From the NCBI RefSeq assembly GCF_963676685.1, contig NC_092352.1, forward strand, positions 24,056,001 through 24,120,000: a DNA stretch of 64,000 bases. The letters run 5' to 3'. The notes beneath the pieces are model-generated. The model was not told the origin of the DNA, did not search any database, and was given only the letters and a program-made list of their open reading frames with translations. Shown here piece by piece: positions 3,575 to 64,000 of the stretch. Position numbers and translations under genes: made by a program. The number at the start of each line of letters is the position of its first letter. Position 1 is the stretch's first letter. This stretch comes from Mytilus edulis (lineage: Eukaryota).

Positions 3575-4655
3575 GAGTAAAATCACAAAAATACTGCACT
3601 TAGAGGAAGATCAATTGGGAAAGTCCATAATCACATGGCAAAATCAAATAACAAAACGCATCAAAAACGAATGGACAAAAACTGTCATATTCCTGACTTG
3701 GTACAGGCATTTTCAAATGTAGAAAATGGTGGATTAAACCTGGTTCTATAGCGCTAACCCTCTCACTTTAATGACAGTCTCATCAATTTCCGATATTTTT
3801 ACATTGATGCGTTAAATAAACAGACACAATAAATATAATAGTCAAAATATGGGTACATCAGTCATCATCGTTTAACAATTTTAAAAGGAACAATTTAACA
3901 GAACACAAAAACATCTACTATCTACGAACACATTTATTGATTTGAGTGTCTGACGTCAGAAAATTTTATACGTCATATAAATTTGTCGTTCAATGTACGT
4001 ACAAACAATTTTAAAATTTTCATGGGAATGTTAGCATACAGGGTTAAAAAATCAAAAGTATGTAAGAAAAAATTTAAGAAATAGACCGAGATTTAAACTA
4101 GTCCAAAAGTTATATATAGAATTTATAAGAATCCAAAAATAGTGAATTCCACTACGCGATTGAATGATTTTGACGTTTGTGGTTCAACGTATATTGTGAT
4201 TCATAATAGAAATATATCATAATGACATATAAATAGAACAATATCCTACTGACGGGATCTTTTAAAGTACAGAGTCACGTTATAAGAACAAAAGAAATAC
4301 AAAAAGTCGCAAATACAAAACAAACCACAAAAAAATGAAAGCCGATACAAACACATTGACGAGATGTATAAGTACCGAGCCACGTGAAACGGAAATCACA
4401 TGAAACCATTCAACAGTAAAAGTAATATTAATAATAGAACAAAGACAAATGAAAGAACTATAAACCACGTTGTTAAGATGATAAACAACATCAGTACGAA
4501 GAATCTATACATCAAGACCATCGTGTATTATTTGAGAAGTTGATACGGAATATTTATCAACAAGGTCTTGGTACCTTCCGATGAACTTTTTTTAGAAAAA
4601 GAACGAGACGTTCTTTGACATACCCCTGTTTCATCAACTTTCTACTCAGATAAAG
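3575..4655 (-). mobile_element. 3' end of Penelope-like (Naiad-type) retroelement: RT C-terminus plus long 3' UTR/pLTR
   Basis: Minus strand ~4652-4505 reads LSRKLMKQGYVKERLVLFLKKFIGRYQDLVDKYSVS, matching the C-termini of the PLE RT fragments at 15078-16016 and 34010-34306; the downstream sequence recurs at ~17495-17990, ~21500-22050 and ~25562-26310. Confidence 0.75.
3691..3766 (-). ncRNA. twister-ribozyme-like motif (circularly permuted)
   Basis: Minus strand GTGA-GA-GGG...TAA-TCC-AC-[CATTTTC/GAAAATG]-CCTG-TACCAAGT-CAGG-A follows the twister P2/P3/P4/L4 order. Confidence 0.5.
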
Positions 4656-7044
4656 TGTTTACTGAAAAAACATCATGTCTTGAAACGTCGCCATTCGACG
4701 TCATCTGTACTATTAAACGAGAAGACCTCATTTTGTGTGTCGCTTCTCTTCCTTCCACAATAAATTAATCATCATGCTTGTGTGTCCTATAGGTAACATG
4801 CATAGTCGCATTTGTCATCCATACTTATGATTATTCAGATTAAGTTTTTTTGGGAGAAAACGACATAAAAAGGCATCCGGATATTGTTTCCGTCATCTGA
4901 GTGACTTAAAGTCATACATAAGACTTCCGGTTTTAAACGCATGCACAAGTACATTGATAACCAATCTTATGATAGATAACAAAAATGAAAAATAAATAAG
5001 CCAATCAGAGCGTTCTCCATATCATAGTTTTCAGATCGCAAGAACCACAACAAGGTATACCTCCTTATAGAGGACAATTATTTTTCGCGTTTATCTACAT
5101 GTAAACTACGATTATACTTATATAATATATAGTGACTCTCTGTATTCTTTCTATTGTTTTCTATGATATGTTTACTATTTAAGGGGTCATATCAGTTGCA
5201 AATATATTAAAATAAGTAAAACATGTGGAAACAAGAATGTGTACATATTAAATGGTTGCCACATCGGCACTTTCATTTTCTATGGTCAGTGGACCGTAAA
5301 AATGGGGTGAAATCTTTAATTTGGCATTAAGATTAGAAAGATCACAGCATGGGGAACATATCTACTAAGTTTCGAGTTGATTGGACTTCAACTTTATCAA
5401 AAACTTAAACCTGATGCGGGACAGATGGACGGATGAACAAACGGACGCACAGACTAGAAAACATAATGCCCATAAATGGGGCGTACAAATTTATTTTTGA
5501 AAGTGAAAGAAGTGATTTGGCAAAAATGAAAGTAGGGTAGAAATTAGAGGGGACAGAACCTTTTTCGGGACATTAGGATCGGTTGTTTTTAAGCTCGGGA
5601 TTTCGGGATTGATCCTTACGGGATCCGGGAATTCTTTTTTCGAATTTCGGGATTTCGGGATATAAATCTCTTTAAATTCCGACTTCTGGATTTCATATTT
5701 TTAAGCCCGGGATTCCGGGATGAAGACCCAGCCGACCACCCCTCAAATTAGCCTTATAATCATTTATAAGTACAAGATTCAAATCCTACCATTGGCATGT
5801 TAATAGGGCTCTCGAAAGAAAAAATGTCCTAGAAGCATATTTTATCAGAATAATAATAGTCTATAAGCAGTTACATTTGTTTCATGTTTAAACCCCTGCA
5901 AAATTTTTAATTTAATTTGTCTTTCACGTAAAAATGCATTGTAGCAAAGGGGAAGAATAATTGAGGTCTTAGGCCAGAAACACGATAATAATCGAGTTTT
6001 ACAGAGAGGAAACAAATAACGGACTTTGGAAAAAGGGAGAGGGCTTTTGATACCTTTTATGAAATTCCCCTCACATAAAATCTTTTATAAAAAAATCCTC
6101 CTACAACAGTTTACAATCTGTAAATGCCCGCGATTTCGCGTATGTGTTCTAGTTAATATAAAAATAAAACCGAGAAAAAGAAACTCTCATGAACCACATC
6201 AACAAACGTAAACCGCTTAACAACAGGTTCCTGACTTTGGACAGGAACAAACAAATGCAGATGGTTTAAATTACATTGATATCGTTCCTTGGTTTGTTTG
6301 TTTTATTTTGGTTATATCTTTTGTAAGTTTACTTTCGATCTTCTGTTACTATTATTCTTTTCGAAAACACAGCTACTTTTACTTCTTTCGGATAAAACAG
6401 AGGCCCATAGCAAGATATTGTTTAACTTAGCATGGGAAGCCGTCAAGCCAATTTATAATGAAAAAACCGACATACATGAAATTTGTCAAATGTCTTTGGA
6501 TGATGACAAGAAAGATGATCTCATTGACGAAGAAGATAATATCCTAGCAATCCTTGGAGAGTTTGGAATTATTATTGAAACCGACAACAACTTATCATCG
6601 GCCTTCACAGTGGAAGACACAATAATGGCGTCCAATCTCCGTACGATAGTATCTTTGACAGTCTTTCACCTCCCTCTATCTTCCATCAATATATCACCAT
6701 TTCTACCATTTTGTGAGATTCTTCCAAAACCATCATCGACACTTTATCAGGAGTATTTGTTCATTCTTCTCTTATAACGACTCACACACCACCTTTTTCT
6801 TCTGCATCATCAATAACTTCTTCCGATATCCTGCCATCCTTAGTCTTCCACAAAGATATTTCAATCATCAACTTTTCCCACGATGCATCGCTCACTAGCG
6901 TGCCAGAAATTTGAGGTAATGGTATTGGAATTTACGCATGGGTGCAATTTGAGTACACCTTATAACAGAATCATTGATGGCTTGGAGGTCAGTTCAGACC
7001 AATTTTTTCTATGATTCCATATGGATTTAAGAAATAATTGATGT

Positions 7045-13831: not shown

Positions 13832-14706
13832 ACTGTCCCCTATCAATCTCATCTTTTTCTTTAAAATCTTCTATGAACCTGGGAAAAAGGGATGGTGGGG
13901 AGTCGATGATGTCTTTTCTCTAAGTAGAGTTAGAGGGTTATGTTGATAATTTTGAGGCAAGTGCTGGTATTATAAGGGGTAAAATAATGTACTCGTATCT
14001 AAGACCTGGGGCGGATCCAGCCATTTATAAAATGGGGAGGGTGGGTTCAAACTACATGTCCTGATTCAGATGTATTAATCATCACTCGAAAAAATTAAAG
14101 GGTTCTGCTTTTTCAGGAATGAGTTCAGTATTTAATACTTTTATATGGTAAATATATTCTAAATGCGCACCATATTACACATTCACTACATGTTCTTTTT
14201 CTTATCTTATCTTATCTGAATCAATTTTTAATAAATGACTCAATTATAACGTTAATCATTTGATACCATTTCAGCAAAATTAGTACATGAGACCAAAGCA
14301 AAAACACTAAACGTTGTTTTCTGGAGTTTCTGCATGCTCTGCATTGCAATTATACTTTTGAGACGATCCCTCACATTCGCTTCACAGAAAAATTTTCTAA
14401 TATCAGGATATTAAGGACATGAAATGAGAAAAACTGTTATCTGAATGATATAATATATTGAGATGCACGCTATATATCATCAATTGCAACTTACAATTGG
14501 TAAATATGATGTAATTCCACTCTTCCCTGTCCATCCAACCTCATGCATGTAGATTCTTTGTGACGTAGAGAAATGGCGCGAATTAGTAAAGGGAGATAAC
14601 GAAAGAATAACAATGCAATACATAGTTAAAAAACACGTAATAAAATATTTCAAACGGATTATTAAAATATTTTTTCATTTTGAAAAAATAGGCAGAGCCA
14701 AATACA

Positions 14707-16016
14707 ATGAAAGTCCCAACTATGTATTGGCTTCCGAAGCTACACAAAACCCCTTACAAATATAGATTTATTTCGTCTTCAAGCCATTGTTCAACTACTA
14801 AATTGTCTATTCTTCTTACCAGCACACTTGGTACAATTAAAAACCTGATAATAAATTGTTCAAATAAGGCTTTCGAAAATAGTGGAATAAATTACTTTTG
14901 GAGTGTCAAGAACTCGTTGGAAGTACTTGATAAATTGCATGCTTATATTGGTGATTTTGAATCTGTTCAAAGTTTTGATTTTTCTACCCTGTATACCACA
15001 TTGCCTCACATTCTCATTAAGAAAAAAATCACACACCTAATTAAATGGGCATTCAAAAAATCAGAATGTGAATATATATGTTCAAACTCTCTTTTAGGTC
15101 ATTTTTTAGTAGCAATAAACAAAAAAATTATGTTAATTGGACATGCTTTGATACTATATATGCCCTTGAATTTTTACTAGATAACATTTTTGTTCGCTTT
15201 GGGGATTCCGTATATCGTCAGATTATCGGAATTCCAATGGGGACTAACTGTGCACCACTTATTGCGGACCTGTTTTTGTATTGTTATGAGTTACAATTTA
15301 TGACAAAAATAAGCAAAGACCCATCGAAACAACATCTGATAAACAAATTTAATAATACTTTTAGATATTTGGATGATATTTTGGCTCTCAATAATGACGA
15401 CTTCAGTATGTATATTAATGAAATTTATCCTGTTGAACTCACTTCAAATAAAGCTAATACTAACAATGACCACTGCCCTTTTCTCGATCTTGATATCTAT
15501 ATCACTAATGGAAAGCTGAATACTAAAATTTATGATAAAAGGGATGATTTTTCATTTCCTATCGTTAATTATCCGTTTTTAGATGGTGACGTTCCCTTGT
15601 CACCATATTACGGTGTTTATATATCTCAACTTGTACGATTCGCTCGTGTATGTAACAATGTTTTAGATTTTAACGAGAGAAATTTATGTATTACTGAAAA
15701 ATTATTACACCAGGGTTTTCGATATCACAAACTAGTCAAAACATTTACTAAATTTTATCATCGGTATAAAGACATCATTCGTAAATATAGCTCAACATGC
15801 AGACTTCTAATACGTTCAGGTATTTCACATCCAATTTTTTATGGAAATATTCTTTATAAAGCAAAAAGGTGTCAGTATTCACCTCAGAAACTTACAAAAC
15901 CTTTGAATAGACTTATTAAGAAGGGATATAATTACGATACTGTTGTCAAGTCATTAAAGATTGCATATTTTGGCGTTAATATTGAGTCACTGATAATGTC
16001 TTTGCATCGGAACTAA
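14707..16016 (+). pseudogene. PLE reverse transcriptase (frameshift near 15090)
   Basis: YWLPKLHK, FDFSTLYT, QIIGIPMGTNCAP, FRYLDDIL, FLDLDI, KIYDKRDDF. Confidence 0.9.
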
Positions 16017-16053
16017 ACACATTTATTCTAAAAACAGTTGTTGGCATGACACG

Positions 16054-16146
16054 GGTTATGTTCTTCTCATATATGTTATGATGGTATGATACTAAACCCC
16101 TAACGGGAAGGATTGTGCCTGATGTTCATATGATGAAATCATAATC
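16054..16146 (+). promoter_or_regulatory. SECIS element (type II)
   Basis: ATGA (16078-81), helix GGTATGAT/ATTGTGCC, unpaired AAA (16094-96), CCC/GGG mini-helix, TGAT (16120-23); lower helix TCATAT/ATATGA; about 40-60 nt after the RT stop. Confidence 0.8.
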
Positions 16147-16341
16147 TTTCAGTCAGTTTAATTGAAGTCTGGAGCTGGCATGTCAGTTAACTGCTAGTAG
16201 TCTGTTGTTATTTATGTATTATTGTCATTTTGTTTATTTTCTTTGGTTACATCTTCTGACATCAGACTCGGACTTCTCTTGAACTGAATTTTAATGTACG
16301 TATTGTTATGCGTTTACTTTTCTACATTGGTTAGAGGTATA

Positions 16342-16409
16342 GGGGGAGGGTTGAGATCTCACAAACATGTTTAACCCCGCCGCATTTTTGCGCCTGTCCC
16401 AAGTGAGGA
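16342..16409 (+). ncRNA. twister-ribozyme-like motif (best-formed P2)
   Basis: GGGG-GA-GGG...TAA-CCCC-GC-[CGCA/TGCG]-CCTG-T-CCC-AA-GT-GAGG-A; P2 and both pseudoknots can form; one P4 mismatch. Confidence 0.6.
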
Positions 16410-17290
16410 GCCTCTGGCCTTTGTTAGTCTTGTATTATTTTAATTTTAGTTTCTTGTGTACAATTTGGAAATTAGTATGGCGTTCATTATCACTTGACTA
16501 GTATATATTTGTTTAGGGGCCGGCTGAGGGACGCCTCCGGGTGCGGGAATTTCTCGCTACATTGAAGACCTGTTGGTGACCCTCTGCTGTTGTTTTTTAT
16601 TTGGTCTGGTTGTTGTCTCTTTGACACATTCCCCATTTCCATTCTCAATTTTATTATTTATGCTTAACACGTTTAAAAAAGTAATACGTAGATTTAATTA
16701 AGAAATAAAAGTATTAAGTGACATAAGGCCATATTTTCTACTAACACAAAATTTTGGGTACAAGGAGCTTTGTCGAGCTGAGGCTGAGCTGTACCATTTA
16801 AACAAAGCTGGATACCCCCATTTTTTTGGTGCCCAAAATGTTCCAAAAACCCATCAGTTTAACATAATCGTTTTTTTTTTAAATTCTACCGGGAAATTTC
16901 TGAGCAGTATTGGTTTGTTTGATAATTTTAGTAGAAATCAAACGTGAAAAATGGGACATTTTGAAGTATTTAAGGCTCATTAATATGCTATGCAAGAAAT
17001 AACTGTCCAAAAAAGTTGCTAGAATTTAAATATACATATTACTGAAGAAATTTGTCTATATCAGACAGTTACACTATTTTTCATATACGCTCTAGCACAC
17101 TCAATAGCAAGACACGATTATTTGCAAATAAGGCCCTAAAATACACTTTTCAAGGCACTCTATGGAAAAAACAAGCCTAATGACCCCCATTTTTCTCAAC
17201 ATTTTTGAATTCAGTATAAAAAATTCTACAAAATATGTGAAAATAAAAAAAAATCTACCGGGGGTCCTTATTGGGGTCAGCCACCTTAAA

Positions 17291-18058
17291 CCCTCTTGAT
17301 GCCAGTTGTTTTTTAAGGTTGTATTTCGTGTGCCAGAAAATACGTCACCTCGACGTCTCTGTTACATCAGATGTCCAACAATGACGTCATTCGATATATG
17401 ACGTCAAGCCAAAAATGACGTTAGATTTGTGATCCACTGAAGAAAAATACTGTTTAAAATCTTCCGTCTTTTATTTGAAAAAGATAACATAACTTCTGAT
17501 TTTTTAACCCTGTATACCAACGTTCTCCTTGTGAAATTATAAAATTGTTTTGAATAAACATTAAATGACACAATTTCTTCTTATGTGACGTTTACATTTT
17601 CTGACGTCAGACACGCGAAGCAATAAATGTGTATTTTAATTTGATAGATGCGTTTGTGCTTTTTAGTAAATGATTGTTTGTTTTAAGATTGTAACACAAT
17701 GTTGACTGCTGTACCCATATTTTGACTCTTTAATTTATTTACATGTCTGTTTTGTTCACGCATCGTTGTATTTATAACGGAATTTAATGATACTGTCGTA
17801 CAAGTGAGAGGTTTAGCGCTATAAAAACCAGGTTCAATCCACCATTTTCTACGTTTGAAAATGCCTGTACCAAGTCAAAAATGACAGTTATCCATTCCTT
17901 TGGTGTGTTTTGTCATTTGAATTTGCCATGTGATAAGGGACTTTCCAATTATATTTTCCTCGGAGTTCAGTATTTTTGTGATTTTACTTTATACAACAAG
18001 AGGAGAAGCTTGCTCAAATTTAAACATTGATATATGTCTCCCTCCGGCAGCAAGAGGG
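17291..18058. mobile_element. non-autonomous piggyBac-like element with nested PLE 3' fragment
   Basis: TIRs CCCTCTTGATGCC / GGCAGCAAGAGGG, flanked by T(T)AAA on the left and TTAA on the right. Confidence 0.6.
17804..17877 (+). ncRNA. twister-like motif, P4 damaged
   Basis: GTGA-GA-GGT...CAA-TCC-AC-P3-CCTG-TACCAAGT-CA. Confidence 0.4.
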
Positions 18059-18699
18059 TTAAGTGTGTATCTAGCCGGTTTTACCAGTATTTTTTAAAAA
18101 TAATATTCTCAAAAACATAACCAATAATAGAAATCTAGTCCGTTTAAATAGTTTTAAAAATAAGACCTATCATTCCAACACTTGAAAAACGACAATATAA
18201 TCCATTCCTTTATTTAATGTGTTGTGGCTTTTTACTTTGCCATTTGATTTCTCGACTTTCCGATTTGAATTATTCCTTGGGAGTCCAGTATTTTTGTGAT
18301 TTTATTTTTTTACTGTGAAAGTATGAACGTCTGATGTAGATTTAGCAAAAAAGTATAAACCAAATATTCATATAATTTGACGTATCAATGTCGTATGACG
18401 CGTTTTCATCCAAATGAAAGCCTTTAAAATATAGAAACACTAATTGCAGTTTGATGGTCTACACGGAAAAGTCCTTTCCGAGAAAAAAGCACTCAAAACA
18501 AAGAATACGTTCTAGAAATTATCACATATCACTTGATTCATTTTAGTTGTGTGATAAAGTCACGGGGGGTTAACTTCCTATTATTGGGTATACGGGGATG
18601 TGCCACAAATATGGGTCATAATTTTGCGAGATTTTATATAGAAATGACCCTCCTTTTTAATGACATCCTATATTAAAATGCATTAATATTGTCTTCATA

Positions 18700-19165
18700 T
18701 GTAACCCATACTTCAGCCAATACTTGCATCTCATATATCCCAGTGAACTTGAAATTAAGGATACTACTGATACTAGAAGGACTGCGTCATACCTTAATCT
18801 TTTCCTCAATATTGACGTAGATGGACGACTTCACACGAAAATCTATGACAAACGGGACGATTTCAACTTCCCAATTATCAATTTCCCATTTCTCAGCAGT
18901 AACATACCATCTGCCCCTTCGTATGGTGTTTACATATCACAATTGATACGTTATTCACGTGCTTACGTTATTCACGTGCTTGTTCACACTATACGGACTT
19001 CATATACAGGAGTGTGCTACTTACGCAGAAACTTCTCCAACAAAGCTATGAGGACAGATTAAAATTGACACTCCGTAAAATTTTATGGACACCATCACGA
19101 ATTGGTGGATCCATACGATGTGTGTTTAACCAAACTAGCTAAGGACATTTTTACCACATGGTAGA
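18700..19165 (+). pseudogene. PLE RT C-terminal fragment
   Basis: IYPSELEIKDTT, KIYDKRDDFNFPIINFPFLSSNIP, YGVYISQLIRY; frameshifted. Confidence 0.85.
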
Positions 19166-19993
19166 TTATGGTTTGTCATTATGTCGTCTAATCTTTTAAT
19201 TACCAAACGTGACTGTTTTGCTGAGTGTGAATTCGCATTACTATAAGACGTGTTACGGTACTTGTCTATCCCAAACTCATGTATTTAGTTTAAATGTTTA
19301 ATGTTATATTTGTAATTCTCATCGGATTTTGTCAGATGTGTTGACGTCTTTTCTATTATATTTATGTGTTATGGAAACAAAAATTAATCACCGCCGTCAT
19401 TTATTAGATATAATTTTGGTCAACATAATCTGTACGATAATTTAAGTTTGAAGTTGGATTCATAACAAACTGCACATATACATATTATAGTTAATTGCTA
19501 TTAATAAGTATTGCAATATGCATTGTGTTTAAATGCAATATCAGTATTTAGTTCTATTTTAATCTTTAATCAATCCTAATTCTATCTTACTTTTGAGATA
19601 TAGTTTTTCATATGTGACGTAATTTTTCTGCTGTTTCAGAAATTTCATATGTTCAAATTTTTAATGCCTTTTCACCGTCGTATGTGACGTCATTTTCATA
19701 ATTTACTGCGTTGAAGCCTGGACTGAGTCGGGTGTCTATTCTGTGTTGGTCATTCATTATGTATTCGTGTTTGTTTTATGTAATGAGTTAATACTTCAGT
19801 TTCATTATGTATATCTGTTATATTCATTTGATAAAATTTACTGTTTGCAATAGCATTAATTGTTCTAAATAATTAGGATGTTGTTATCCCAAGCATACAA
19901 ACTTAGCCATATTTGACACAACCTTTTTCAACTTTTGATCTTCAGTGCTGTACAACTTTGTACTTTTTTTCGCTTTCGATCTTTTATATCTTG

Positions 19994-20037
19994 GCGTCAC
20001 TGATGAGTCTTGTGTGGACGAGGCGCGTTTTTGGCGT
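19994..20037 (+). ncRNA. degenerate minimal type I hammerhead ribozyme
   Basis: GCGTCA-CTGATGA-GTCT/GGAC-GAGG (in place of GAAA)...TGGCGT. Confidence 0.55.
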
Positions 20038-20174
20038 ATTAAATTTTAAACCTGATGCTTTTTGTTATTCATTAATCATGTATTTCTTTGTCTAATACGT
20101 TTTCCTATTTATTGTATTGTAGTCCTGTAATATTATGTTGTCATTTCTATGTTATATTTAACATTGCCATTCAA

Positions 20175-20252
20175 GTGCGAGGTTTGGCATGCCACAAAAC
20201 CAGGTTCAACCCACCATTTCTTCCTTTAAAAATGTCCTGTACCAAGTCAGGA
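20175..20252 (+). ncRNA. twister-like motif
   Basis: GTGC-GA-GGT...CAA-CCC-AC-P3-CCTG-TACCAAGT-CAGG-A. Confidence 0.5.
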
Positions 20253-20827
20253 ATATGGCCATTTTTATTTTATAGTTCGTTTCTGTGTGTGTAACAATTT
20301 AACATTGCGTCGTTTGTTTTCTCTTATTTTTGAGTGTAAATTGACATTGCGATAAGACGTGTCACGGTACTTGTCTATCCCAAATTCATGTATTTGGTTT
20401 TGATGTTATATTTGTTATTCTCGTGGGATTTTGTCTGATGCTTGGTCCGTTTCTGTGTGTGTTAGTTACATTGTAGTGTTGTGTCGTTGTTCTCCTCTTA
20501 TATTTATGCGTTTCCGTCAGTTTTAGTTTGTTACCCCGATTTTGTTTTTTGTCCATGGATTTATGAGTTTGAACAGCGGTATACTACTGTTGCCTTTATT
20601 TACGTTCGATAACTGTATATTGATTTGGGGTATACATATCATATATAAATATGCTATTGAGAATCTTACATTATTAATGGTCAAGTATTATATTAAAATG
20701 AATCAATTCATTTGAAAGTTCACCTTTCAAATAAGTTCGAACCCCGAAAATTTGTCTGCTGATTTGATCTTCAATAACGATTTGACGTCAATGTTTAAGT
20801 ACACAAAAAAAGATCAATATTTCCAAT

Positions 20828-21093: not shown

Positions 21094-21499
21094 GTAAGTC
21101 AATGTTCACATCAAACAGTGGTACACCTGTTTTACCTGTTTACACTAATATACGTACGTCATATTGGCAGAAAATACAATATTTATTTGTGCGGCAGCGA
21201 GCTTTAGAAACACAAATATGGAATCGCTTTTTCATGTTTCGTACTTGAGCATTTTCTACATTTACTCTAGTCCGTATGTCAGTTTTTGGTGTTAATGATA
21301 TCGCGTCATATAGACGACGTCATTTTAACAGGTTTTCATACATAGGATAACCGAAGTTTAACGCCGGATAAAGAGTTAGAAGTTTAACGCCGGATAAAGA
21401 GTTGGAAAAGAAAATACCTTTAGAAATAACATTAACAGGCCTATTCTGCATAATTGCAAAAGTTTATGCCATTTTTGCAATACATCCCTGATATAAATT

Positions 21500-22050
21500 C
21501 TATATATAACTTTTGGACTAGTTTAAATCTCGGTCTACTTCTAAAACTTATTCTTACATACTTTTGATTATTTAACCCTGTATGCTAACATTGCCTATGT
21601 AACATTTTTAAATCGTTTGTATGCACATTGAACGACAAATTTATGTGACGTATATAATTTTCTGACGTAAGACACTCAAATCAATGAATGTGTTCGTAGA
21701 TAGTAGATGTTTTTGTGTTCTGTTAAATATTGTTCCTTTTAAAATTGTTATACGATGATGACTGATGTACCCATATGTTGACTATTTTATTAATTGTGTC
21801 TGTTTATTTAACGCATCAATGTAAATATAACGGAATTTGACGAGACTGTCATCAAAGTGAGAGGGTTAGCGCTATATAGAGCCAGGTTTAATCCACCATT
21901 TTCTACATTTGAAAATGCCTGTACCAAGTCAGGAATATGACAATTCTTGTCCATTCGTTTTTGATAGTTTTGTTATTTGAATTGGCCATGTGATTATGGA
22001 CTTTCCGAATTAATTTTCCTCTAAGTTCAGTATTTTTGTAATTTTACTTT
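21500..22050 (+). mobile_element. PLE 3' UTR/pLTR copy containing a twister-like motif (21857-21934)
   Basis: Closely similar to the reverse complement of 3575-4115. Confidence 0.75.
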
Positions 22051-24749
22051 TTATAAATATCATTTAAGGCACAATTGTTGAAGGTTTTTTAGTGACGGGT
22101 ATGCTTTATTTCAGTTTGGTTTTTTTTTTAACTCTGGCTTACATTGCTATTGGCAGGTCTCTTACTTAATTCTGTTATCGTTCATAGCGCAATTTGTAGG
22201 AAAATACATAAGTATTATAGCTGCGAGTATTTCTCCTGCAGAGAACTGAACAGTTTAAAGAGGGGGGCGTAGGGATCCTCATCCCGAAATCCCAGGCTTA
22301 AAAACATGAAATCCCGAGGTACCGAATTTAATCAAAAATAAAATCATGACATCCCAAAAGGATCAATCGCGAGCTGTAAAACACCCGATCCCGACGTTCC
22401 GAAAAAGTCCCTGCTCCCCTCTTTAAAGTCTAAAATTAATAATAGTACTATTGCTATAGTCATATTTTAATATCTTAATAGTATCAAACAGTCTCTTGTC
22501 TGTCCGTGAGGGTACTCAAATTGCAACTTTTCCAGGTTTTTTCACATACGTTTTTTATGATTCAGAGAAACAGTGTGTTCATTTTGTAAACGTAATCTAT
22601 CCTTGTTAATTAATGCTCACAAATTCAATTTCATATCTATCTTGAATCATTAAAAAAAATGGGTAAGAACCGACCACCAATAGAAAATGATTGTCACTTT
22701 AAACATTTAGAACAATTTGATACTAGTCTATGAAAAGTGTTCATATTTTAAATCAATATTACTGAATCCTGATTGCGTTCCCCCCCCCCCCTTTTTTCTA
22801 TGTCTTTTGACAACCTTTACTGTCTAAAGTCTAATTTTGTAATATCCTGTGACGTGGCTCGGTACTTGTACATCCCGCCTTAATGATTAAGCTATTGTCA
22901 TTTGTTTGTTTCTTAATTGATGACCCCTTTGTTTGTGTTAAGCTATTGTCATTTGTTTGTTTCTTAATTGATGACCCCTTTGTTTGTGTTAATATTGGTT
23001 AATGTTATATCAAAATGTTGACTACTGTACCTCCGTTTTTTGTATTTACTTATAAATTTTAGTTGCACACAAGAAATAAAGGCGAATTCCAAAGAAAATA
23101 CTACTGTGAAACTCCTTTAGTCAATGACAAAATCAAAAGCTCGAACGACTAAAACGTATGTATAACAACTAAAAACTCCCACTTATATGACAGTCGCGTA
23201 AAATTTCATTATATTGACAACTATGTGGTAACAAAACTTCCAGTTAAATAGGTATACAGTAGACAACCTTGTGTTATACTCTTTATTAACATTAAAACAT
23301 AAAAATATGTCGACAAAGAAAAACAAAAAGGCATATTGACAAAGCACATTAAAAGAAACGAGACAAGAATACTAAAAAGTACTATAGCACCCTGACCGGA
23401 TGTTCAAGTACAGAGCCACGTCAAATGGTTATTACCAAAAGATTAACATAGTTGTAGTTTTAAAAGACAATAAGAGAAAAAAATCATAATTTAACACGTT
23501 ATTGAGATATAAAATAAAACGTAAGTACCTACAGTCGCCGGCACGTAAAATTGGCACCATGATTTTTGTCGATTTTTTTTTTATTGTCAGTCGCATTTAC
23601 TCGAGATGTTTTTCAAATAGCGGAATAAAAATCCATTCCAAATATATAGAACTGTCCTACCTTTTATTGTGTTTGCACTGTATAATCCTGACCTTCTCAT
23701 TTTTCAAGATTATTTACATGGCCAAATTATCCGCCATCTTCGTTTCTATGAGGATCCTCTAGTTACATAGCATTCGTTACTTTCCGGCAATGTCCGAGTC
23801 ATTGATGTGATACAGTTTCCCGCGCTTTTTACATGTAAACAATAACACGAGTTGTGTAATCGACAAGACAGATGTTACCTGAATATGACCCGGTGAATGG
23901 ACAGAATGGTGTTATACACGATGAAAGAATACAATATAAAGGTAATGTATTAGAAAACAAACCAAAAATAAAAGCCGCAAACATATCCAATCACAACATC
24001 TGAAGAAGACGGAACTTAACATATTTCAGGGGTTATTGGGGCAAGAGAACATGCTTTTCGGAAAATACAGCCGTCCAACGTCATAAAAATATCAAACTAG
24101 GGAACATGGGAATAAGAAGTTGCTAAGCAGGAGTCAAAAAAGGGGGCGGGAGGTAGCGGTAGTCTTCGGAGTGCAGTAGGAGTCAGAATGGGAAAATGGC
24201 TATTTTACTGATTTTCATTTTTAAAAGAATAATGAAATATGCACAGAAAAAAATGAATACCTGTGTGAAATATCTGTTGAGATGTTTTCTGGTTAAAAAA
24301 AACCCAGACATTGATAGTATAAATGGAGCCTTCAAGTTCATGAAAATAGAAGATGATACAGAAACAGCAGAAACACACTTCATGTTTCAACATCAATTTG
24401 TGTAAATGTCAATACAACATAATTGCTACATATGAGTTCAACAAAAGCAAAGTACATGAATTAAAATGGACGCCACAGTTAATTCTGAATGGTTTATTTT
24501 GGAATTTCTGAGAAAAAAATGACACTTAAATTTCTTTTAATGTCGAATGGAAATGCTTACCATTCACAAGTAAACATTAATTCTTATTTATTTTCCATGT
24601 TGATCCTTTAATAATTGACTTTCATTTTTTTTTGTGGATAATATTCTTTTCATTGCATATATATTTACAGAATACCAAAGTCCACATTAATTACATCTCT
24701 TGCATTGAAATCTGCTCTATGCAGGTTCATTGTTACAACTTATAATTAT

Positions 24750-25561: not shown

Positions 25562-26310
25562 AAAAGTAAAATCACAAAAAAACTGAACTTGAGGAAAATC
25601 AATCCATAATCAAATTACAAAACGCATCAAAAACGAATGGACAAGAACTGTCATATTCCCAACTTGGTACAGGCATTTTCAAATGTAGAAAATGGTGGAT
25701 TAAATCTGGTTTTAAAATGCTAACCCTCTCACTTCGATGACAGTCTCGTCAAGTTCCGTTTTATTTACATTGATGCGTTAACTAAACAGACACAATAAAT
25801 AAAATAGTCAAAATATGGGTACATCAGTCATCATCGTATAACAATTTTAAAAGAAACAAATTAACAGAACACAAAAACATCTATCTACAAACACATTCAT
25901 TGATTTGTGTGTCTGACGTCAGAAATTTTATACGTCACATAAATTTGTCGTTCAATGTACATACAAACAATTTTAAAATTTACATAGGCAATGTTAGCAT
26001 ATAGGGTTAAAAAAATCAAAAGTATGTCAGAATAAATTTCAGAAATATACCGAGATTGAAAATAGTCCAAAAGTTATATACAGAATATAAGAATCCACAA
26101 ATAGTTAATTCCACTACGCGATTGAATGATTTTGACGTTTATGGTTCAACGTATTTTGTAATTCACAATAGAAATACATCATATGACATAAAATAGGACA
26201 ATATTATACTGACGGGATCTTTTGAAGTACAGAGTCACGATATAAGAACCAAAGAACTACAAAAGGTCGCATATACAAAACACGCCACCATAAAATGAAA
26301 GACAATACAA
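25562..26310 (-). mobile_element. PLE 3' UTR/pLTR copy containing a degenerate twister-like motif (25657-25732)
   Basis: Same orientation as, and highly similar to, 3575-4350. Confidence 0.75.
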
Positions 26311-26962: not shown

Positions 26963-27120
26963 GTCCACTTGTATTTTTGTCCATCTGATGAGTTGGGCCC
27001 TTTTCAACTCATTGTATGTATGTGCCTGTCCCGAGTCAGGAGTCCACTTGTATTTTTGTCCATCTGATGAGTTGGGCCCTTTTCAACTCATTGTATGTAT
27101 GTGCCTGTCCCGAGTCAGGA
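26963..27120. repeat. 79-bp tandem duplication
   Basis: GTCCACTTGTATTTTTGTCCATCTGATGAG...CCTGTCCCGAGTCAGGA occurs twice. Confidence 0.9.
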
Positions 27121-27929
27121 TTAGGGGTTGTCGTTTTTTTATGTGTTGCATATTTTTTTTTCTTTTATTTTTTGCAATGTTTACTTAAATTAGGCCGTTA
27201 GTTTTCTCTTTGAATGTTTAACATTGTCATTTCGGGGCCTTTTATGGCCGACCATGCTGTATGAGATTGCTCATTGTTGAAGGCTGTACGGTGACATATT
27301 GTTGTTAATTTCTGTGTCATTTTTGTCTCATTGGGAATCATACCAAATCTTCTTTTTTTATATATTGTTACGCCATCTATCTATTTTTATATTGTTAAAG
27401 ACTGAATGTTGACTTTTTACTGCAGACTTGAGAGTAAAGCTAACACCTATTAATTTTTAATATTCTTTATGCTGAGTTTCTGTTTCATTCATATACATAT
27501 ATATATCACATCAACTGTTTCATGTTCAAACATTAAACATTATTATACCAGATTAAAAAATGAGACAATGTTTAAGTGTGAAATAGATTTTCCATTGTGG
27601 AAATTTTGAACATAGACAGCTTTCAGAATTGATGCACTTCTAATACGTTCTATTATGTGTTTTTTTTTTCATTTTCAGGTTAAGTCCCTTAATGCATTAA
27701 TGATCATAGTCAAAACTGATCCCCATCTTAACCTTCCTTTTTTTTTAACTTGCAAAATTCTTATGTATAGTTGAGACTTCTACATCATTTTATAGCTATA
27801 CATGCATCTCATAATCTATAGTCGTATAGATGTACATTAAAAAGCATTTTCAATAAAACAATACAACAGTGTATTTAAACAAAAAATATGATTTAATTAC
27901 GTAACATACATGATACAATATGCATGTGC

Positions 27930-30975: not shown

Positions 30976-33180
30976 AAAATTTCAATTGTCCATGTATTTC
31001 AGCATATAACATAAAAACGATAGAAAAACTTGTATATAATTGTATAGAGTGTATTCAAGGTGATTGGGGGCATGTATTTATCTTCTTGTTTGCATAATCA
31101 TAAAAAAATGTTCGAATTGCATAGCTTGACAATATATTTCAAGTTTTCTTATCCCCACTTAAAAAAATTATACATTTGCCCCAATTACATTGTTTGAAAT
31201 TTATCATTTTAATATACACGTAATTCATTTAAAATTACTATATTCGGTGTATGTGGAAGGATAGGAATGGAATTTATTTCCAATGGTACACATGACCCTT
31301 GCATCCTTTTCATGTTTAATTGTTGATGTGTATTTACAGTGAGCTGTAATACCTGTAAATGTTGCTGTTGATGCCTTGACCTCAAGATCCCAACGATTCA
31401 GGTCTCAAACAAAGTTTGTCTGCTTTGAAATCATAATTGTTGATTTTTTATGCAAATAATTTTATTTCTTAATAAGATTTTTTTTTTAAAGTTAATTTTA
31501 CCTGTTGCCTTCACTAATCTTTTAATTGGATTCTGTATTGACCATGTCTTATTTTTCTCCTTTTCTGTTAAAAAAACTGGAAAATTTTCCTTAATAGTTC
31601 TTTTGTCTGAAAAAAAACCCATGTACATATTACCAAAGGGGAGGTAATCCATAGTAAGAATGGGATGTGATTTTTCTACTTTATTCTTGTAAGTTCCAAT
31701 TTTAAAAATGCAGAGGCTTTGTTAAAATGACAGTGTACAAAGATTACATTATGTAGTTATGTATATAATTTATGTTATTGTGTAATGATTTTTGTATAAA
31801 TGTTTTCTTTCATTAACCAATTTTTAAGGTGTTTTTATAATTGCAAGACACTGACATACTGTATGGCTTTCTTAATCAACAATTATCATTTATACATTAT
31901 TGTTGTATAGTAGTATATAGAAGTTTTTGTTCTATTGTAGCTGTGAAATTGATTTAAGGTACCACATTTTTAGAAAAATTTAAATAATTTGAAAGATTTT
32001 TGCTTTAAGCACTTCTTGGTGATATTTATATTGTAATTTTGTGAGTATATAAATAATTGTATTATTCTGGTAGCTGTTAATACTTGCATAACCATCAGTC
32101 ATATTAGGCGGTCAGGATAATAACTTGTATTTCAATTGCTCTGAAATTGACCACAATGTTTAAAACAACAAGTAGAAGATTTGGATTCATTTTAGGGGTT
32201 ATAGGGCCAAAGTTTAGGATTAGAGGGCCAAAAACAAGCATTTTTATAGTTTCCAGATAATAATGTGTGTGTAATTGTATGGATCTCTCTAAAATTGTAC
32301 CAAAATGTTCCATTTAACAAAGAAGAGGCTCAGATGGAGTTTTTTGTTAATTGCTTAAAATATGTTGGAATTAGGGGCCAAAAAGAAGCATGTTGTTAGT
32401 TTCCAGACTTGCGTGTTTTAAGTTTTAAATAAATATGGAAACTCGTATCTTCTCAGTCAGTCTGTGTGTTTACTCTGCCTGCATGGTTGTTCAACACTTC
32501 GTACTTAATACATTAATCACACATCATACAATGATATACTTTATTTATCCACAAGCAAATGTGTGGGATTCTATCGGTATCTCGGCCTCATAGCAGGGAG
32601 GGTTCTAGTCCAAATAATTATGACGTCTGGGAAGGCTATTCTAAATGCTTGCTTTGACACCCTTCTGCGACTATGTAAGGCGTCAAAAAAAGATCTATCA
32701 AGACGTGATAGTTATTTGAACTAGTAGGTATAAAAAAAAGATGTGGTATGATTGCCAATAAGACAACTCTCCACAAGAGACCAAAATGACACAGTAATTA
32801 TCCATCAATGAGCAAGGCCCATACCGCATAGTCAGCTATAAAAGGCCCCGAAATGACAATGTAAAACAATTCAAACGAGAAAACAAACGGCCTTATTTAT
32901 ATAAAAGAAAAAGAACGAAAAATAAATGCGTGACACATAATTAAACGACAACAACTGAAATACAGGCTCCTGACTTGGGACAGTCACGTATACATAACAA
33001 CAACAAAAAGACACGAGGAACAGATTTGAGAGTACTCTCAGTTAATTGACTTTACTTAAAGTCACTTAACAACTATTAAGAAAATCATGCATCTAACATG
33101 CACTAAATGGGTTCATAATTTAGGTTGTCATATTTATTCACCGGCTCCATCAACAATCGTTTTTTCAGGACTGACACTTA

Positions 33181-33363: not shown

Positions 33364-34606
33364 TAAAGTTTCACTCATACATGCATCATTTTGAAATTCC
33401 AAAGATCTTTTAGAGTACATACAATCTAACTCTCTTTCATCTTGTAACAGTATTAAAACATTTGACTTTTCTACTCTTTACACAAGTATTCCACAATCCA
33501 AACTAAAAGACAAATTGAAAGAGTTGGTATTACTTGCTTCATAAAAAAGAATGGCCAACGTAGATACAAGTATCTTGTCTTAGGGAGGGATAAATCATAC
33601 TTTGTAAAGAATCACTCTGATTCAAACAACAAATTCTCTGAAACCGATATTATCAAGATGCTTGATTTCTTGATTGCCACATATTTGTAACGTTCGGAGG
33701 ACGTGTTTTTCAACAGACTGTCGGCATCCCATTGGGAACAAAATGTGCCCCTCTACTTGCCGACTTGTTTCTTTATTATTATGAGGCTGACTTCATGCAG
33801 GAACTTCTTAGGAAGAAAGATAAGAAGTTAGCAATATCCTTTAACTCTACTTTCCGCTATAAAGATGACGTTCTTTCACTAAACAATTCAAAATTTGGTG
33901 ACTATGTGGAACGCATCTATCCCATCGAATTGGAGATAAAGGATACTACAGATACAGTTAAGTCGGCTTCATATCTTGACTTGCATCTAGAAATTGAAAT
34001 GAGGGTCGGTTGGATGATTTCAGTTTTCTAATTGTGAACTTTCCATTTCCAAGTAGCAACATTCCAGCAGCACCTGCATACGAGGTATATATCTCCCAAT
34101 TGATACGATATTCCCGTGCTTGTATTTCCTATCATGATTTTCTTGATAGAGGGTTACTGCTCACAAGGAAGCTAATAAACCAAGAGTTCCAAATGGTGAA
34201 GTTGAAACCATCCCTTCGTAAATTTTACGGACGCCATCACGAGTTGGTTGACCGTTATAGAATAACCGTTTCACAAATGATATCGGATATGTTCCTTACG
34301 TCGTAGCTACAATCCCCTTCCCGTTCATGAATGTGACCTACCGAATTAGACTATTTACCGGATTTGTAATCACATAAGCAACACGACGGGTGCCACATGT
34401 GGAGCAGGATCTGCTTACCCTTCCGGAGCACCTGAGATCACCCCTAGTTTTTGGTGGGGTTCGTGTTGTTTATTGTTTAGTTTTCTATGTTGTGTCATGT
34501 GTACTATTGTTTTTCTGTTTGTCTTTTTCATTTTTAGCCATGGCGTTGTCAGTTTGTTTTAGATTTATGAGTTTAGCTGTACCTTTGGTATCTTTCGTCC
34601 CTCTTT
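33364..34606 (+). mobile_element. 5'-truncated PLE (RT pseudogene to 34306, plus pLTR)
   Basis: FDFSTLYTSIP, GIPLGTKCAPLLADLFL, FRYKDDVL, YLDLHL, ISQLIRYSRAC; frameshifts. Confidence 0.85.
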
Positions 34607-38859: not shown

Positions 38860-39916
38860 TTCAAAGGTGGTAATTAGTTTCGACAAACCCACATCGTATG
38901 GATCAACCAATTAGTGATGGAGTCCGTAAAATTTACGGAGTGTCATTTTTAATCTGTCCACCTCATAACTTTGTTGGAGCAGTTTGTGCGTTAGGAGCAT
39001 ACTACTGTATATGAAGTCCGCATCGTGTGAACATGCACGAGAATAACGTACCAATTGAGATATGTAAAACACCATACGATGGAACAGAATGTATGTTACT
39101 GCTGAGAAATGGGAAATTGATAATTTGGGAAGTTGAAATCGTCTCGTTTATCATAGATTTTCGTGTAAAGTCGTCCATCTGTGTCAATATTGAGGAAAAG
39201 ATCAAGGTATGAATCAGTCTTTCTACTATCAGTAGTATCCTTAATTTCAAGTTCACTGGGATATATGAGATGCAAGTATTTGCTGAAATATGGGTTATTC
39301 AATGATAGGACATCATCAATGTATTGGAAGATAAAATTAAAGAATTTCGCAAGGTGCTTTTTCTTTATGTCTTTTACATGTTTTAGAAGGTTCTGAATTA
39401 ATTATGACGCCCATCTTTTACTGTAGAAAGAACAGTACTTTAGAAAGATATTTAGTCGAACATTTTGATGATCCAGCTATGTAGCTTTCGTTATATGGAG
39501 TTTTCTGTAGTTTTGGTTTCCAGTATAATGATGGTAAATCCTCTTCGTTTTCTTTTATTGTAAAACCAAAAGAAAGATGAACATATTCGTGATTTTGTAA
39601 AATTTCGTCCTTGGTAAATGATGTTAACCAATATGAAGGATTAGCAGTAGTATATTTATTCCAAGCTCTGTTGTGAAACATTATGAATAATGATTTTTAC
39701 ACATGAAGACAATATTATTGGAGGCTTTATCTGCTGGAACAACGATATATTTGTCAGGCAAATAGGATAAAGCATCCACAACATCCGGATTCTTAAAAGG
39801 GTGAGTAACTATTGTGCTCATAGTACGTCGTAGTTTATGAATGCGCTTCTAAATGCATGATCGAATAACTTTGATCCATTCAGACAAAGTGTCTAGTTCT
39901 TGTTCGTATGGTTCGC
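38860..39916 (-). pseudogene. PLE RT fragment with internal deletion
   Basis: YIVVPADKASNNIVF, LPSLYWKPKLQKTPY, IYPSELEIKDTT, KIYDKRDDF. Confidence 0.85.
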
Positions 39917-44760: not shown

Positions 44761-44804
44761 CTGCTTGTCATTTGCGGATCCAGTGATACGAATATCTTTT
44801 AATT

Positions 44805-46487: not shown

Positions 46488-46542
46488 AGAGGGTCAACTC
46501 CAATGACCAGGAGCTGACCCAGGGTTTTCAGGAGAAAGGTCA
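46478..46542 (+). promoter_or_regulatory. -1 programmed ribosomal frameshift signal
   Basis: T TTA AAC slippery heptamer directly before the gag stop, 6-nt spacer, stem GGGTCA-A-CTCC / GGAG-C-TGACCC; loop TGACC complementary to GGTCA at 46538-42; -1 frame is open into pol. Confidence 0.85.
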
Positions 46543-50494: not shown

Positions 50495-50883
50495 CTGTTG
50501 TTAATGGCCGGTTAAACTCCATTATCCTTTGTCTGTACTATACTTGAGTGATGAACTGAAAATTTAAAAATAAATTTTTGTAAATATCAGTAGAGATATC
50601 AAATATGAATTCATTATTTTTATGAATTCTTCCAAAGAAATCTAACTTGACAAGTTAGGGATCAAATTTATATTTTGCTTACCAATATGAAAATTGTTAA
50701 GTATTTAATTTTATTTTAAATAATATAAACTTGGTGTATGAAATTTTTATATACCGTTTAATAAGTATGTAATTATCTCCCCTGTATAAAGCTAAAATAA
50801 ACTTCAGATACACTGCCAGGTTATTTCTGGGACCAGACCTATTAAACTGGACAAGAGTTTTAAAGGTCCTATACTCTTTTTAG

Positions 50884-56605: not shown

Positions 56606-56649
56606 GCGTCACTGATGAGTCTTGTGTAGACGAAACGCGCATCTGGCGT
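56606..56649 (+). ncRNA. minimal type I hammerhead ribozyme
   Basis: Stem I GCGTCA/TGGCGT, CTGATGA, stem II GTCT/AGAC, GAAA, short near-palindromic stem III, ATC cleavage triplet (C56643); lies in a ~300-bp repeat (56380-56683). Confidence 0.8.
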
Positions 56650-63678: not shown

Positions 63679-63718
63679 TACGCGCGTTTCGTCTACATAA
63701 GACTCATCAGTGACGCTC
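63679..63718 (-). ncRNA. hammerhead ribozyme copy with deleted cleavage site/stem I
   Basis: Minus strand GAGCGTCACTGATGAGTCTTATGTAGACGAAACGCGCGTA; same repeat family as 56380-56683. Confidence 0.65.
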
Positions 63719-64000
63719 ATATCAAAATATTTATAAAGCCAAACAAGTACAAAGTTGAAGAGCATTGAAAATCCTAAATTCCCAAAAGTTGCTATGTTTA
63801 TTAAAAATGTTACACATGAACATTCAAAAACACGTGTGTATATATTATACACAACTACAGTGGTGATCACTTCTAACCTCGCATTAAATCTGTCAGGAGA
63901 ACGGTTCTATGACAGTATGTAGAACTGTCAGCCTGACACCTTTTAGACAGTTCTACCGAGAACCGGTCCTGGCAGTCCTACCCTAGAACAGTTTTAGACA

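What the first reader, a model, noticed from the sequence alone, without database searches (positions are those of the whole stretch)
16342..16409. Circularly permuted twister-ribozyme-like fold in the 3' ends of several Penelope-like families
Six copies from at least three sequence families (3691-3766 minus, 16342-409, 17804-877, 20175-252, 21857-934, 25657-732 minus) follow the order P2'-GA-T1'...(U/C)AA-P2-T2-P3-P4[U-T1-AA-T2']P4'-A. This is the twister core (compare CCGG-UCCCAAGC-CCGG-A) opened at P5. Covariation is visible: L4 CCC with GGG versus ACC with GGT; GC or AC with GT; and a variable but paired P3. The catalytic G and A positions are present. P1 is replaced by two short palindromes (GAGATCTC + AAACATGTTT; AGCGCT or GGCATGCC + AACCAGGTT), which could drive dimerisation. 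PLEs are known for hammerheads, and I do not know of twisters in them.
Basis: partly seen in the sequence, partly recalled or inferred. Interest (0 to 1): 0.75.

Follow-up and report, generated by a model that had tools for sequence, protein, structure and literature searches.

The report
Dimer-type twister ribozyme in Naiad retroelements
Several families of Naiad jumping genes, a group reported to lack the usual self-cutting hammerhead RNA, carry near their 3' end a conserved RNA motif with the core of a twister ribozyme, in which one stem is replaced by two palindromes that likely pair two copies together; the cutting itself is predicted, not tested.

Summary
The motif is real. All six copies have the type-P5 twister order and both catalytic positions, though each has at least one damaged helix or palindrome. 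Family A (16342) is a selenoprotein-coding Naiad Penelope-like element, with 2,829 exact copies of its 68-nt core in the genome. Family C and one family B variant also follow Naiad-like reverse transcriptases (RT). The fold lies on the sense strand after the RT in 21 of 44 unrelated Naiad loci (0 antisense, 0 of 75 coding controls, 0 of 440 shuffles), and 29 of 44 with a covariance model. P2, P4, T1 and T2 show two-sided changes. It is also in 6 of 45 published Naiad consensus ends that I read, from mussels, clams and a ctenophore. P1 is replaced by two palindromes whose sequence varies but whose symmetry is kept. Best reading: a twister variant that likely cleaves at U16372/A16373, aided by pairing of two copies, filling the role hammerheads hold in other Penelope-like elements. 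Against: no Rfam cut-off is reached, one RNA-seq run shows no ends at the cut, and cleavage is untested. Eight literature searches found no twister-Naiad link.

The parts
16330..16418 (+). Twister-like RNA, family A, with closing helix P5 (16330-16338 pairs with 16410-16418)
   Evidence: Sequence; P5, P3 and P4 form in the predicted minimum-energy fold; 68 bits with model R1
16342..16350 (+). P2' (16342-45), predicted general-base G16346, A16347, T1' (16348-50)
   Evidence: The same block of relative L198 aligns to the Rfam Twister-P5 consensus; G and A are invariant in 22 of 22 rows
16352..16361 (+). Palindrome 1, in place of the 3' strand of P1
   Evidence: Self-duplex -14.4 kcal/mol; 0 of 300 linker shuffles reach the two-palindrome score
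16363..16372 (+). Palindrome 2, ending at the base before the predicted cut
   Evidence: Self-duplex -8.8 kcal/mol
16372..16374 (+). Predicted cleavage site U16372/A16373 (predicted general acid A16373), then A16374
   Evidence: Position by homology to twister L1 (PMC5408937 passages); cleavage not tested
16375..16409 (+). P2 (16375-78), T2 (79-80), P3 (81-92), P4 (93-96), U97, T1 (98-400), AA, T2' (403-404), P4' (405-408), A409; this copy has a G.G mismatch at 16396/16405
16068..16132 (+). SECIS-like element 52 nt after the RT stop codon
   Evidence: Rfam SECIS_1 32.3 bits, below the 35-bit cut-off; long copies have in-frame TGA codons at four places
14692..16654 (+). 5'-truncated family A Naiad copy: RT in two frames (14692-15081, 15117-16013), 3' UTR, element end 282 nt after the predicted cut
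   Evidence: 98% identical to the 1008-aa ORF of L125; shared 3' end among genome copies
20175..20252 (+). Twister-like core, family C; predicted cut 20207/20208; C.C mismatch in P2
18685..20602 (+). Family C element: Naiad-like RT remnant (18685-19049), long 3' UTR, decayed hammerhead at about 19986-20030, then the twister-like core
   Evidence: Contiguous homology with RT-bearing genome copies such as L364, L370 and L371
21857..21934 (+). Twister-like core, family B1, inside a repeat of about 560 nt (21492-22052); A.G in T1; palindrome 2 damaged
3691..3766 (-). Twister-like core, family B1; A.G in T1, both palindromes intact
25657..25732 (-). Twister-like core, family B1, decayed (palindrome 1 lost)
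17804..17880 (+). Twister-like core, family B with GGT in T1'; P4' damaged
6217..6282 (-). Further partial or decayed copy (others at 32956-33053 minus, 26980-27053, 27059-27132)
   Evidence: 18-29 bits with model R1; core motif hits

Best explanation
The motif is a type-P5 twister-like RNA in the 3' UTR (pseudo-LTR) of Naiad Penelope-like elements, predicted to cut itself at U16372/A16373 and likely helped to do so when two copies pair through the two palindromes that replace stem P1. SHOWN: the fold and its two-sided changes, its fixed place and strand after the Naiad RT, the lack of a normal P1, and two palindromes of varying sequence. INFERRED from twister biochemistry: G16346 acts as base and A16373 as acid, giving 2',3'-cyclic phosphate and 5'-OH ends. 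INFERRED from anatomy: palindrome 1 pairs with palindrome 1 and palindrome 2 with palindrome 2 of a second copy. This puts a helix next to T1 and another next to the cut in both cores. A tandem pLTR-ORF-pLTR transcript holds two copies (3,396 nt apart in L129), so it would be cut into a unit-length RNA that could be circularised. Lone truncated copies inside host transcripts would mostly stay uncut. This is the job proposed for dimeric hammerheads in other Penelope-like elements.
For: Descriptor hits on the sense strand in 21 of 44 Naiad-RT loci with at least 500 nt of 3' flank; 0 antisense, 0 of 75 coding controls, 0 of 440 shuffles. Model R1 hits 32 of 76 loci, all sense, 10 of them new. The model has no pseudoknots, yet the T1 pairs nearest the AA hold in 8 of 8 new hits that parsed, including UCU/AGA in L176. 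On a sequence-only alignment of 22 rows: 86.7% of cells paired, 7 of 13 pairs with two-sided change, score 0.359 against 0.132 shuffled and at most 0.091 slid. Twister-P5 aligns over 58 of 58 positions on L198 (23 bits, E 0.003 in 116 nt). The fold is in six published Naiad consensus ends, including the ctenophore Naiad_Mley with T1 CGA/UCG. Palindromes were not required by the search, yet 16 of 16 tested relatives have two (13 at 0 of 300 shuffles, worst 9 of 300). Self-duplexes are -11.7 to -21.1 and -4.7 to -12.9 kcal/mol; monomer linker folds are 0 to -3.3. PLE hammerheads with palindromic loops likely cleave as dimers (PMC6765202). P1 and P2 imperfections are tolerated by twisters (PMC11662667).
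Against: No cleavage data. In one RNA-seq run (X24, about 6% read) there is no pile of read ends at the cut and depth runs through it. The library is mixed-strand and dominated by truncated copies, so this is weak; the same absence was reported for a PLE hammerhead that does cleave in vitro (PMC11167929). Rfam gathering scores are never reached. P1 is dispensable in twister (PMC5408937), so a monomer may cleave without pairing. The outer T1 pair is unpaired in 7 of 22 rows. Only 1 of 4 family A loci that reach the 5' end has an upstream pLTR copy. Genomic copies end 282 nt past the cut, so the cut does not make the inserted 3' end. The predicted family A monomer fold pairs T1' with the cut region in a competing helix. 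The shuffle control ignores relatedness, and 16 of its 22 rows were chosen by a pairing descriptor.
Confidence: 0.58

Rival explanations
1. It is an active twister that cleaves as a monomer, like the P1-less mini-twister. The palindromes pair two element RNAs for another purpose, such as building the RT-RNA particle or template switching.
For: Twister does not need P1 (PMC5408937; PMC11662667). Natural P1-defective twisters in Perere-3 are active (PMC8501958). P5 closes the core within one molecule.
Against: The palindromes sit exactly where the two P1 strands should be, the second ending at or next to the base before the cut. RNA reads run through the site without a dip, although at least 2,829 intact copies exist; a fast monomer cutter would be expected to leave a gap.
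Confidence: 0.22
2. It is a twister-derived fold that is catalytically slow or needs the Naiad protein, and mainly serves as a binding or RT-start signal.
For: The anole PLE hammerhead cleaves only with protein and is not needed for insertion in vitro (PMC11167929). Families B1 (A.G in T1) and C (C.C in P2) spread with imperfect cores. No read ends at the cut.
Against: The catalytic G and both As after the cut are invariant in 22 of 22 rows and present in the ctenophore consensus. These are the positions whose change lowers or abolishes activity (PMC11662667).
Confidence: 0.15
3. The motif acts as DNA (endonuclease or promoter sites, cruciforms), and the twister likeness is incidental.
For: Palindromes are common DNA protein-binding sites (general knowledge), and pLTRs hold promoters (PMC11167929).
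Against: The palindrome sequence changes freely while symmetry is kept. Two pseudoknots covary with G.U allowed. Hits are on the sense strand only.
Confidence: 0.05

Closest known systems
Type-P5 twister ribozyme (Rfam RF02684; class reviewed in PMC5408937)
   Same: Order P2'-GA-T1'...U^AA-P2-T2-(P3)-P4[U-T1-AA-T2']; termini in P5; conserved G, A, A; invariant last G-C pair of P4 (22 of 22); full-length sub-threshold alignment on L198.
   Different: No intramolecular P1; two palindromes instead. P2 is often 3 bp with a bulge. T2 is GC/GU, AC/GU or CC/GG. The outer T1 pair is variable. Below the Rfam cut-off; activity untested.
Minimal type-I hammerheads in pseudo-LTRs of canonical Penelope-like elements (Cervera and de la Pena 2014; Lunse et al. 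2017, as cited in PMC6765202 and PMC7761336)
   Same: Same place in the element (pLTR, not at the very end), palindromic segment, likely dimer-dependent cleavage in tandem copies.
   Different: An unrelated ribozyme class, and two palindromes rather than one. The host is the Naiad clade, in which canonical hammerheads were not found.
Twister T-variants of Perere-3/RTE non-LTR retrotransposons (PMC8501958)
   Same: Twister with defective P1 carried by a retrotransposon.
   Different: Those are drawn in P1-type order and lie at the 5' end, with the target-site duplication supplying P1. This one is P5-type, lies in the 3' UTR of a Penelope-like element, and has palindromes.
Naiad Penelope-like elements, including selenoprotein Naiads (PMC8557442)
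   Same: N-terminal GIY-YIG, KR-rich block, CxC, GxKY, DKA, C-terminal RT, 5' truncation, partial tandem, in-frame UGA plus SECIS.
   Different: The paper reports no canonical hammerhead and its main text never mentions twister. Its selenoprotein Naiads are from clams and spiders; family A here comes from a genome I infer to be a mussel.

Membership tests
Twister ribozyme | P2 and P4 helices, with the last G-C pair of P4 and the U...A in L4 | tested here: met
   P4 100% paired in 22 rows with 2 two-sided pairs; P2 inner pair seen as GC, UA, AU and CG; the second P2 pair is often bulged or mismatched. The 16342 copy itself has G.G at the last P4 pair.
Twister ribozyme | Pseudoknot T1 (L4 with L1) | tested here: met
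   Inner two pairs 22 of 22, with GC to AU in 2 rows; outer pair 15 of 22; UCU/AGA in held-out L176; CGA/UCG in Naiad_Mley
Twister ribozyme | Pseudoknot T2 (L2 with L4) | tested here: met
   GC/GU, AC/GU and CC/GG. 84% paired, where rows with a 3-nt P2 are out of register. Pairing was required by the descriptor; among held-out hits it is standard or wobble in 7 of 8 as parsed, and L204 pairs in the 3-nt register by eye.
Twister ribozyme | General-base G and general-acid A, plus the next A | tested here: met
   Invariant in 22 of 22 (required by the descriptor in 16 of them) and in 6 of 6 window copies
Twister ribozyme | P1 stem next to the cleavage site | tested here: not met
   The two linker halves barely pair (+0.4 to -4.4 kcal/mol in 16 relatives). 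P1 is conserved in the class but experimentally dispensable, so I call this a variant, not a standard member.
Twister ribozyme | Rfam twister model above gathering score | tested here: not met
   No hit in the window or genome (the control also rang nowhere); 13.3 bits to twister-P1 on L163; 23 of 37.6 bits to Twister-P5 on L198
Twister ribozyme | Site-specific self-cleavage at N^A | not testable with these tools
   RNA-seq ends gave no signal and cannot decide
Naiad PLE (family A) | N-terminal GIY-YIG endonuclease, C-terminal RT, no endonuclease after RT | tested here: met
   1008-aa frame in L125 and L127 with the IIY...YVGET motif near the start; it ends after the RT (motifs read by eye; Pfam gave no hit on the window's RT pieces)
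Naiad PLE (family A) | CxC, DKA, GxKF/Y and KR-rich block | tested here: met
   All four seen; defined in section 6 of PMC8557442
Naiad PLE (family A) | 5'-truncated copies and partial tandems forming pLTRs | tested here: met
   Shared 3' end with staggered 5' ends; a 965-nt upstream pLTR in L129, 1 of 4 loci that reach the 5' end
Naiad PLE (families B, C) | Motif downstream of a Naiad-like RT; N-terminal endonuclease | tested here: inconclusive
   C: contiguous with an RT about 45% identical to family A; endonuclease not examined. B: the GGT variant ends the Naiad_Mgal consensus and follows the RT of L207; B1 was not tied to an RT.
PLE minimal type-I hammerhead | CUGANGA...GAAA core at this motif | tested here: not met
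   Not in the motif. Family C has only a decayed core about 212 nt upstream; 0 of 12 canonical hammerheads with 400 nt of flank had a twister downstream.
Perere-3/RTE T-variant twister | At the 5' end of an APE-RT element | tested here: not met
   Lies 148-693 nt after the end of the RT match, on the sense strand

The most novel reading that the evidence does not exclude
Naiads evolved an obligate-dimer twister, in which two short intermolecular helices replace P1 and license cleavage only in tandem transcripts, sparing tens of thousands of host-embedded copies. The pLTR is a slot that different ribozyme classes fill interchangeably: hammerhead, this twister from ctenophores to bivalves, and a second uncatalogued two-palindrome RNA in oyster, hemichordate and hydrozoan Naiads that may be a new ribozyme class.
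Probability: 0.35. Interest if true: 0.85.

Novelty: new variant of a known kind. Interest (0 to 1): 0.72.

Why it matters
Craig et al. 2021 found no canonical hammerheads in Naiads and suggested hammerheads might merely parasitise Penelope-like elements. An unrelated ribozyme class in the same slot, with the same palindrome logic, argues that self-cleavage is part of the life cycle, and it can be tested with a 90-nt transcript. My searches found no natural dimer-dependent twister. The genome holds tens of thousands of pattern matches that Rfam misses. The slot also points to where further ribozyme classes may be found.

Tried and rejected
1) Rfam twister models: no hit in the whole window, in the genome with RF02684 (whose control also found nothing), or in narrow scans of 16320-16430 and 20155-20275. 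Only L163 (E 9) and L198 (E 0.003) gave sub-threshold hits, 2 of 4 narrow scans.
2) A first loose descriptor was not discriminating at two bad pairs: 10 distinct window places against about 9 per shuffle; at one bad pair, 1 against 1.1. It was not used as evidence.
3) RNA-seq run X24: no end pile at the cut in either lay. A joint from 16399 back to 16366 (14 reads) is not at the cut; I treat it as a likely genomic duplication. Contig runs X6 and X7 cannot show ends.
4) Viral contigs: 120 pattern loci, 0 pass the strict descriptor; the scan stopped at 27 of 64 parts. No prokaryote genome search was made.
5) Two-strand folding favoured dimers by 8.4-18.5 kcal/mol in 10 of 10 sequences, but the nested algorithm swaps whole helices and handles neither pseudoknots nor both palindromes at once. 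I give it little weight.
6) RT tree: quick tree only, as the careful search did not finish. It used 41 of 45 rows (L198, L227, L242 and L231 dropped for stops or length). Twister loci fall in both main branches, interleaved with loci that carry the second motif. No order of events is claimed.
7) Pfam did not recognise the Naiad RT fragments.
8) Rejected: an intramolecular P1 between the palindromes; hammerhead identity of the motif; chance.

Full report
OBSERVATION. The six copies are in the window in the order P5-P2'-GA-T1'-linker-N^AA-P2-T2-P3-P4[U-T1-AA-T2']-P4'-A-P5'. They fall into three families: A (16342), B (3691 minus, 17804, 21857, 25657 minus) and C (20175). Each copy has at least one flaw: G.G in P4 at 16342, broken P4 at 17804, A.G in T1 in three B copies, C.C in P2 at 20175, and a lost or damaged palindrome at 25657 and 21857. 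A core pattern matches 37,670 times in the 1.37-Gb genome, with family A partly counted twice, against 76 for the reversed pattern. The intact 68-nt family A core occurs exactly 2,829 times.

HOST ELEMENTS. Family A follows an RT frame (stop at 16016) and a SECIS-like fold at 16068-16132 (32.3 bits, cut-off 35). Copies share a 3' end near 16654 and have staggered 5' ends. Of 12 longer stretches, L125 and L127 hold a 1008-aa frame when TGA is read as selenocysteine at positions 61, 92, 103 and 528. The frame has an N-terminal GIY-YIG-like motif, a KR-rich block, CxC, GPKY and DKA, and ends after the RT. These are the diagnostic features of Naiad elements (PMC8557442 section 6). All 29 other RT-bearing loci have the paired P4. 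L129 is a partial tandem with the motif twice, 3,396 nt apart; it is 1 of 4 loci that reach the 5' end. Family C runs from a Naiad-like RT remnant (18685-19049) to 20602 and has a decayed hammerhead about 212 nt before the P4 core. The family B variant with GGT ends the published Naiad_Mgal consensus and follows the RT of L207. The B1 subfamily is a repeat of about 560 nt that I could not tie to an RT. From the Naiad_Mgal match I infer that the genome is a mytilid mussel.

CONSERVATION OUTSIDE THIS GENOME. An RT alignment fetched 80 Naiad-like loci from metagenome contigs (the best 80 of 510; hosts unknown). A stricter descriptor, which needs pairing but no palindromes, hit the sense strand in 21 of 44 loci with at least 500 nt of 3' flank (22 of all 80). 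It hit 0 antisense strands, 0 of 75 coding stretches and 0 of 440 shuffles. On a sequence-only alignment of 22 rows, 86.7% of cells pair, 7 of 13 pairs change on both sides, and the score is 0.359 against 0.132 for shuffles and at most 0.091 for slid partners. Caveats: 16 rows were picked for pairing, shuffles ignore kinship, rows with a 3-nt P2 are out of register, and the outer T1 pair fails in 7 rows. Model R1, which has no pseudoknots, hit 32 of 76 loci, all on the sense strand; 10 were new, raising the count to 29 of 44. I parsed 9 of the 10 (L207 is cut off) and 8 gave a parse. The inner T1 pairs hold in all 8, with UCU/AGA in L176 and UCC/GGA in L217; two parses (L242, L217) have a poor P2. 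In the supplement of PMC8557442 I read the last 350 nt or so of 45 of 54 Naiad consensi by eye. Six carry the fold: Mgal, Bpla, Mphi, Scon, Mmer and the ctenophore Mley. Mley has P2 GGUG/CACC, T1 CGA/UCG, T2 GC/GC, P4 CCAG/CUGG, no P3 and two palindromes. Motifs further upstream than that would have been missed.

RELATION TO TWISTER. Rfam does not call it: nothing in the window, the genome or two narrow window scans. Relative L198 aligns over all 58 positions of Twister-P5 at 23 bits (cut-off 37.6), which fixes the mapping of G16346, U16372/A16373 and the L4 loop. The class features given in PMC5408937 (two pseudoknots, conserved G and A, last G-C pair of P4) are met, except P1. PMC11662667 reports that P1, P2 and most P4 flaws are tolerated, while changes at the acid A, the next A or the base G are harmful, and a flaw at the fourth P4 pair lowers cleavage. 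The 16342 copy is therefore likely a weakened variant of an intact family.

THE PALINDROMES. All 16 relatives tested have two palindromes in the P1 position: 13 at 0 of 300 shuffles, one at 1 and two at 9. In the window, 4 of 6 copies score at most 2 of 300 and two are decayed (67 and 282 of 300). The sequences differ widely while symmetry is kept. Self-duplex energies are -11.7 to -21.1 and -4.7 to -12.9 kcal/mol, against 0 to -3.3 for a monomer linker hairpin and at best -4.4 for a P1-like pairing. They are too short to fold back stably, so pairing between two molecules is the simplest reading (inference).

MECHANISM. Most likely (0.58), the core folds within each molecule, two copies pair through both palindromes, and each cuts at N^AA. 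A tandem transcript would then be cut into a unit RNA holding the ORF and SECIS, which could be circularised, while lone copies stay largely uncut. This parallels the dimer model for PLE hammerheads (PMC6765202; PMC7761336). Insertions end 282 nt past the cut, so the cut does not set the inserted 3' end. This fits internal RT initiation, shown for another PLE (PMC11167929). Rivals: a monomer-active twister with palindromes for particle assembly (0.22), a slow or protein-dependent fold (0.15), a DNA signal (0.05). I put cleavage under some condition at about 0.8. Against: in run X24 reads cross the site with no end pile; the family A monomer is predicted to form a competing helix over T1' and the cut; tandems are a minority.

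NOVELTY. Eight full-text searches found no paper linking twister to Naiads or PLEs; 'twister' with 'Naiad' gave 0 papers. PMC8557442 states that Naiads lack canonical hammerheads and has no 'twister' in its main text. Twisters in retrotransposons are known at the 5' end of Perere-3/RTE elements. PMC11662667 surveyed bivalves, but its supplement could not be read, so these sequences may be among its candidates. Lunse et al. 2017 was not held and is cited through reviews. Subscription journals are mostly outside the library. What I saw of each paper: PMC8557442, passages, section 6 and supplement parts; PMC11662667, passages and sections 32 and 35; bioRxiv 10.64898/2026.07.22.740005, first fifth and passages; PMC6765202, PMC8501958, PMC5408937, PMC10085705, PMC11167929, PMC7761336 and PMC7229834, passages only. 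Three earlier unchecked notes of this scan report the same association in other genomes; they are not independent support.

VERDICT. A real, conserved, apparently unpublished twister variant in Naiad pseudo-LTRs. It is a new variant of a known kind; catalysis and dimer dependence are untested. Interest 0.72.

Noticed in passing
L210:1425-1475, L215, L216, L219; ten Naiad consensi in the PMC8557442 supplement (CGi, Sglo, Olur, Tgra, Pmar, Skow-1, Skow-2, Pfla-1, Pfla-2, Chem-2): A second conserved 3' UTR motif at the same place in other Naiads, again with palindromic segments and a conserved UGCUYAC stretch inside a GGGUG/CACC helix. It is not twister, and no Rfam ribozyme family matched L210. 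Found in 4 of 45 loci screened. A candidate further ribozyme.
   Followed up: partly
L223; arthropod, octopus, coral and ctenophore (Bfor) Naiad ends in the supplement: Hammerhead core halves in swapped order (GAAAC before CUGANGA) near the 3' end, read by eye; may be permuted hammerheads missed by type-I descriptors.
   Followed up: no
window 14692-16132; L125, L127: Family A is a young, high-copy selenoprotein-coding Naiad (four in-frame TGA plus a SECIS-like fold). PMC8557442 lists such elements only for clams and spiders.
   Followed up: partly
window 19986-20030: Decayed type-I hammerhead in family C, about 212 nt upstream of the twister core in 21 loci. None of 12 canonical hammerheads with full flank had a twister downstream. 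May record a ribozyme replacement; direction not tested.
   Followed up: partly
window 56603-56641 (+) and 63681-63719 (-): Two canonical minimal hammerheads at the ends of another short repeat family, with flanks that resemble the family C relic.
   Followed up: partly
window 21492-22052: Family B1 copies often start at the same place (11 of 29 other loci within 21492-21496), which suggests a non-autonomous element of about 560 nt with an A.G mismatch in T1.
   Followed up: partly
window 44787-52140: Interrupted LTR-retrotransposon-like ORFs with aspartyl protease, RNase H and integrase Pfam hits.
   Followed up: no
window 33666-34282 (+) and 38926-39770 (-): Further Naiad-like RT fragments (34-53% identity) with no twister hit nearby.
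   Followed up: no
window 26980-27132: Two tandem units of about 79 nt that keep only the 3' half of the twister core.
   Followed up: no
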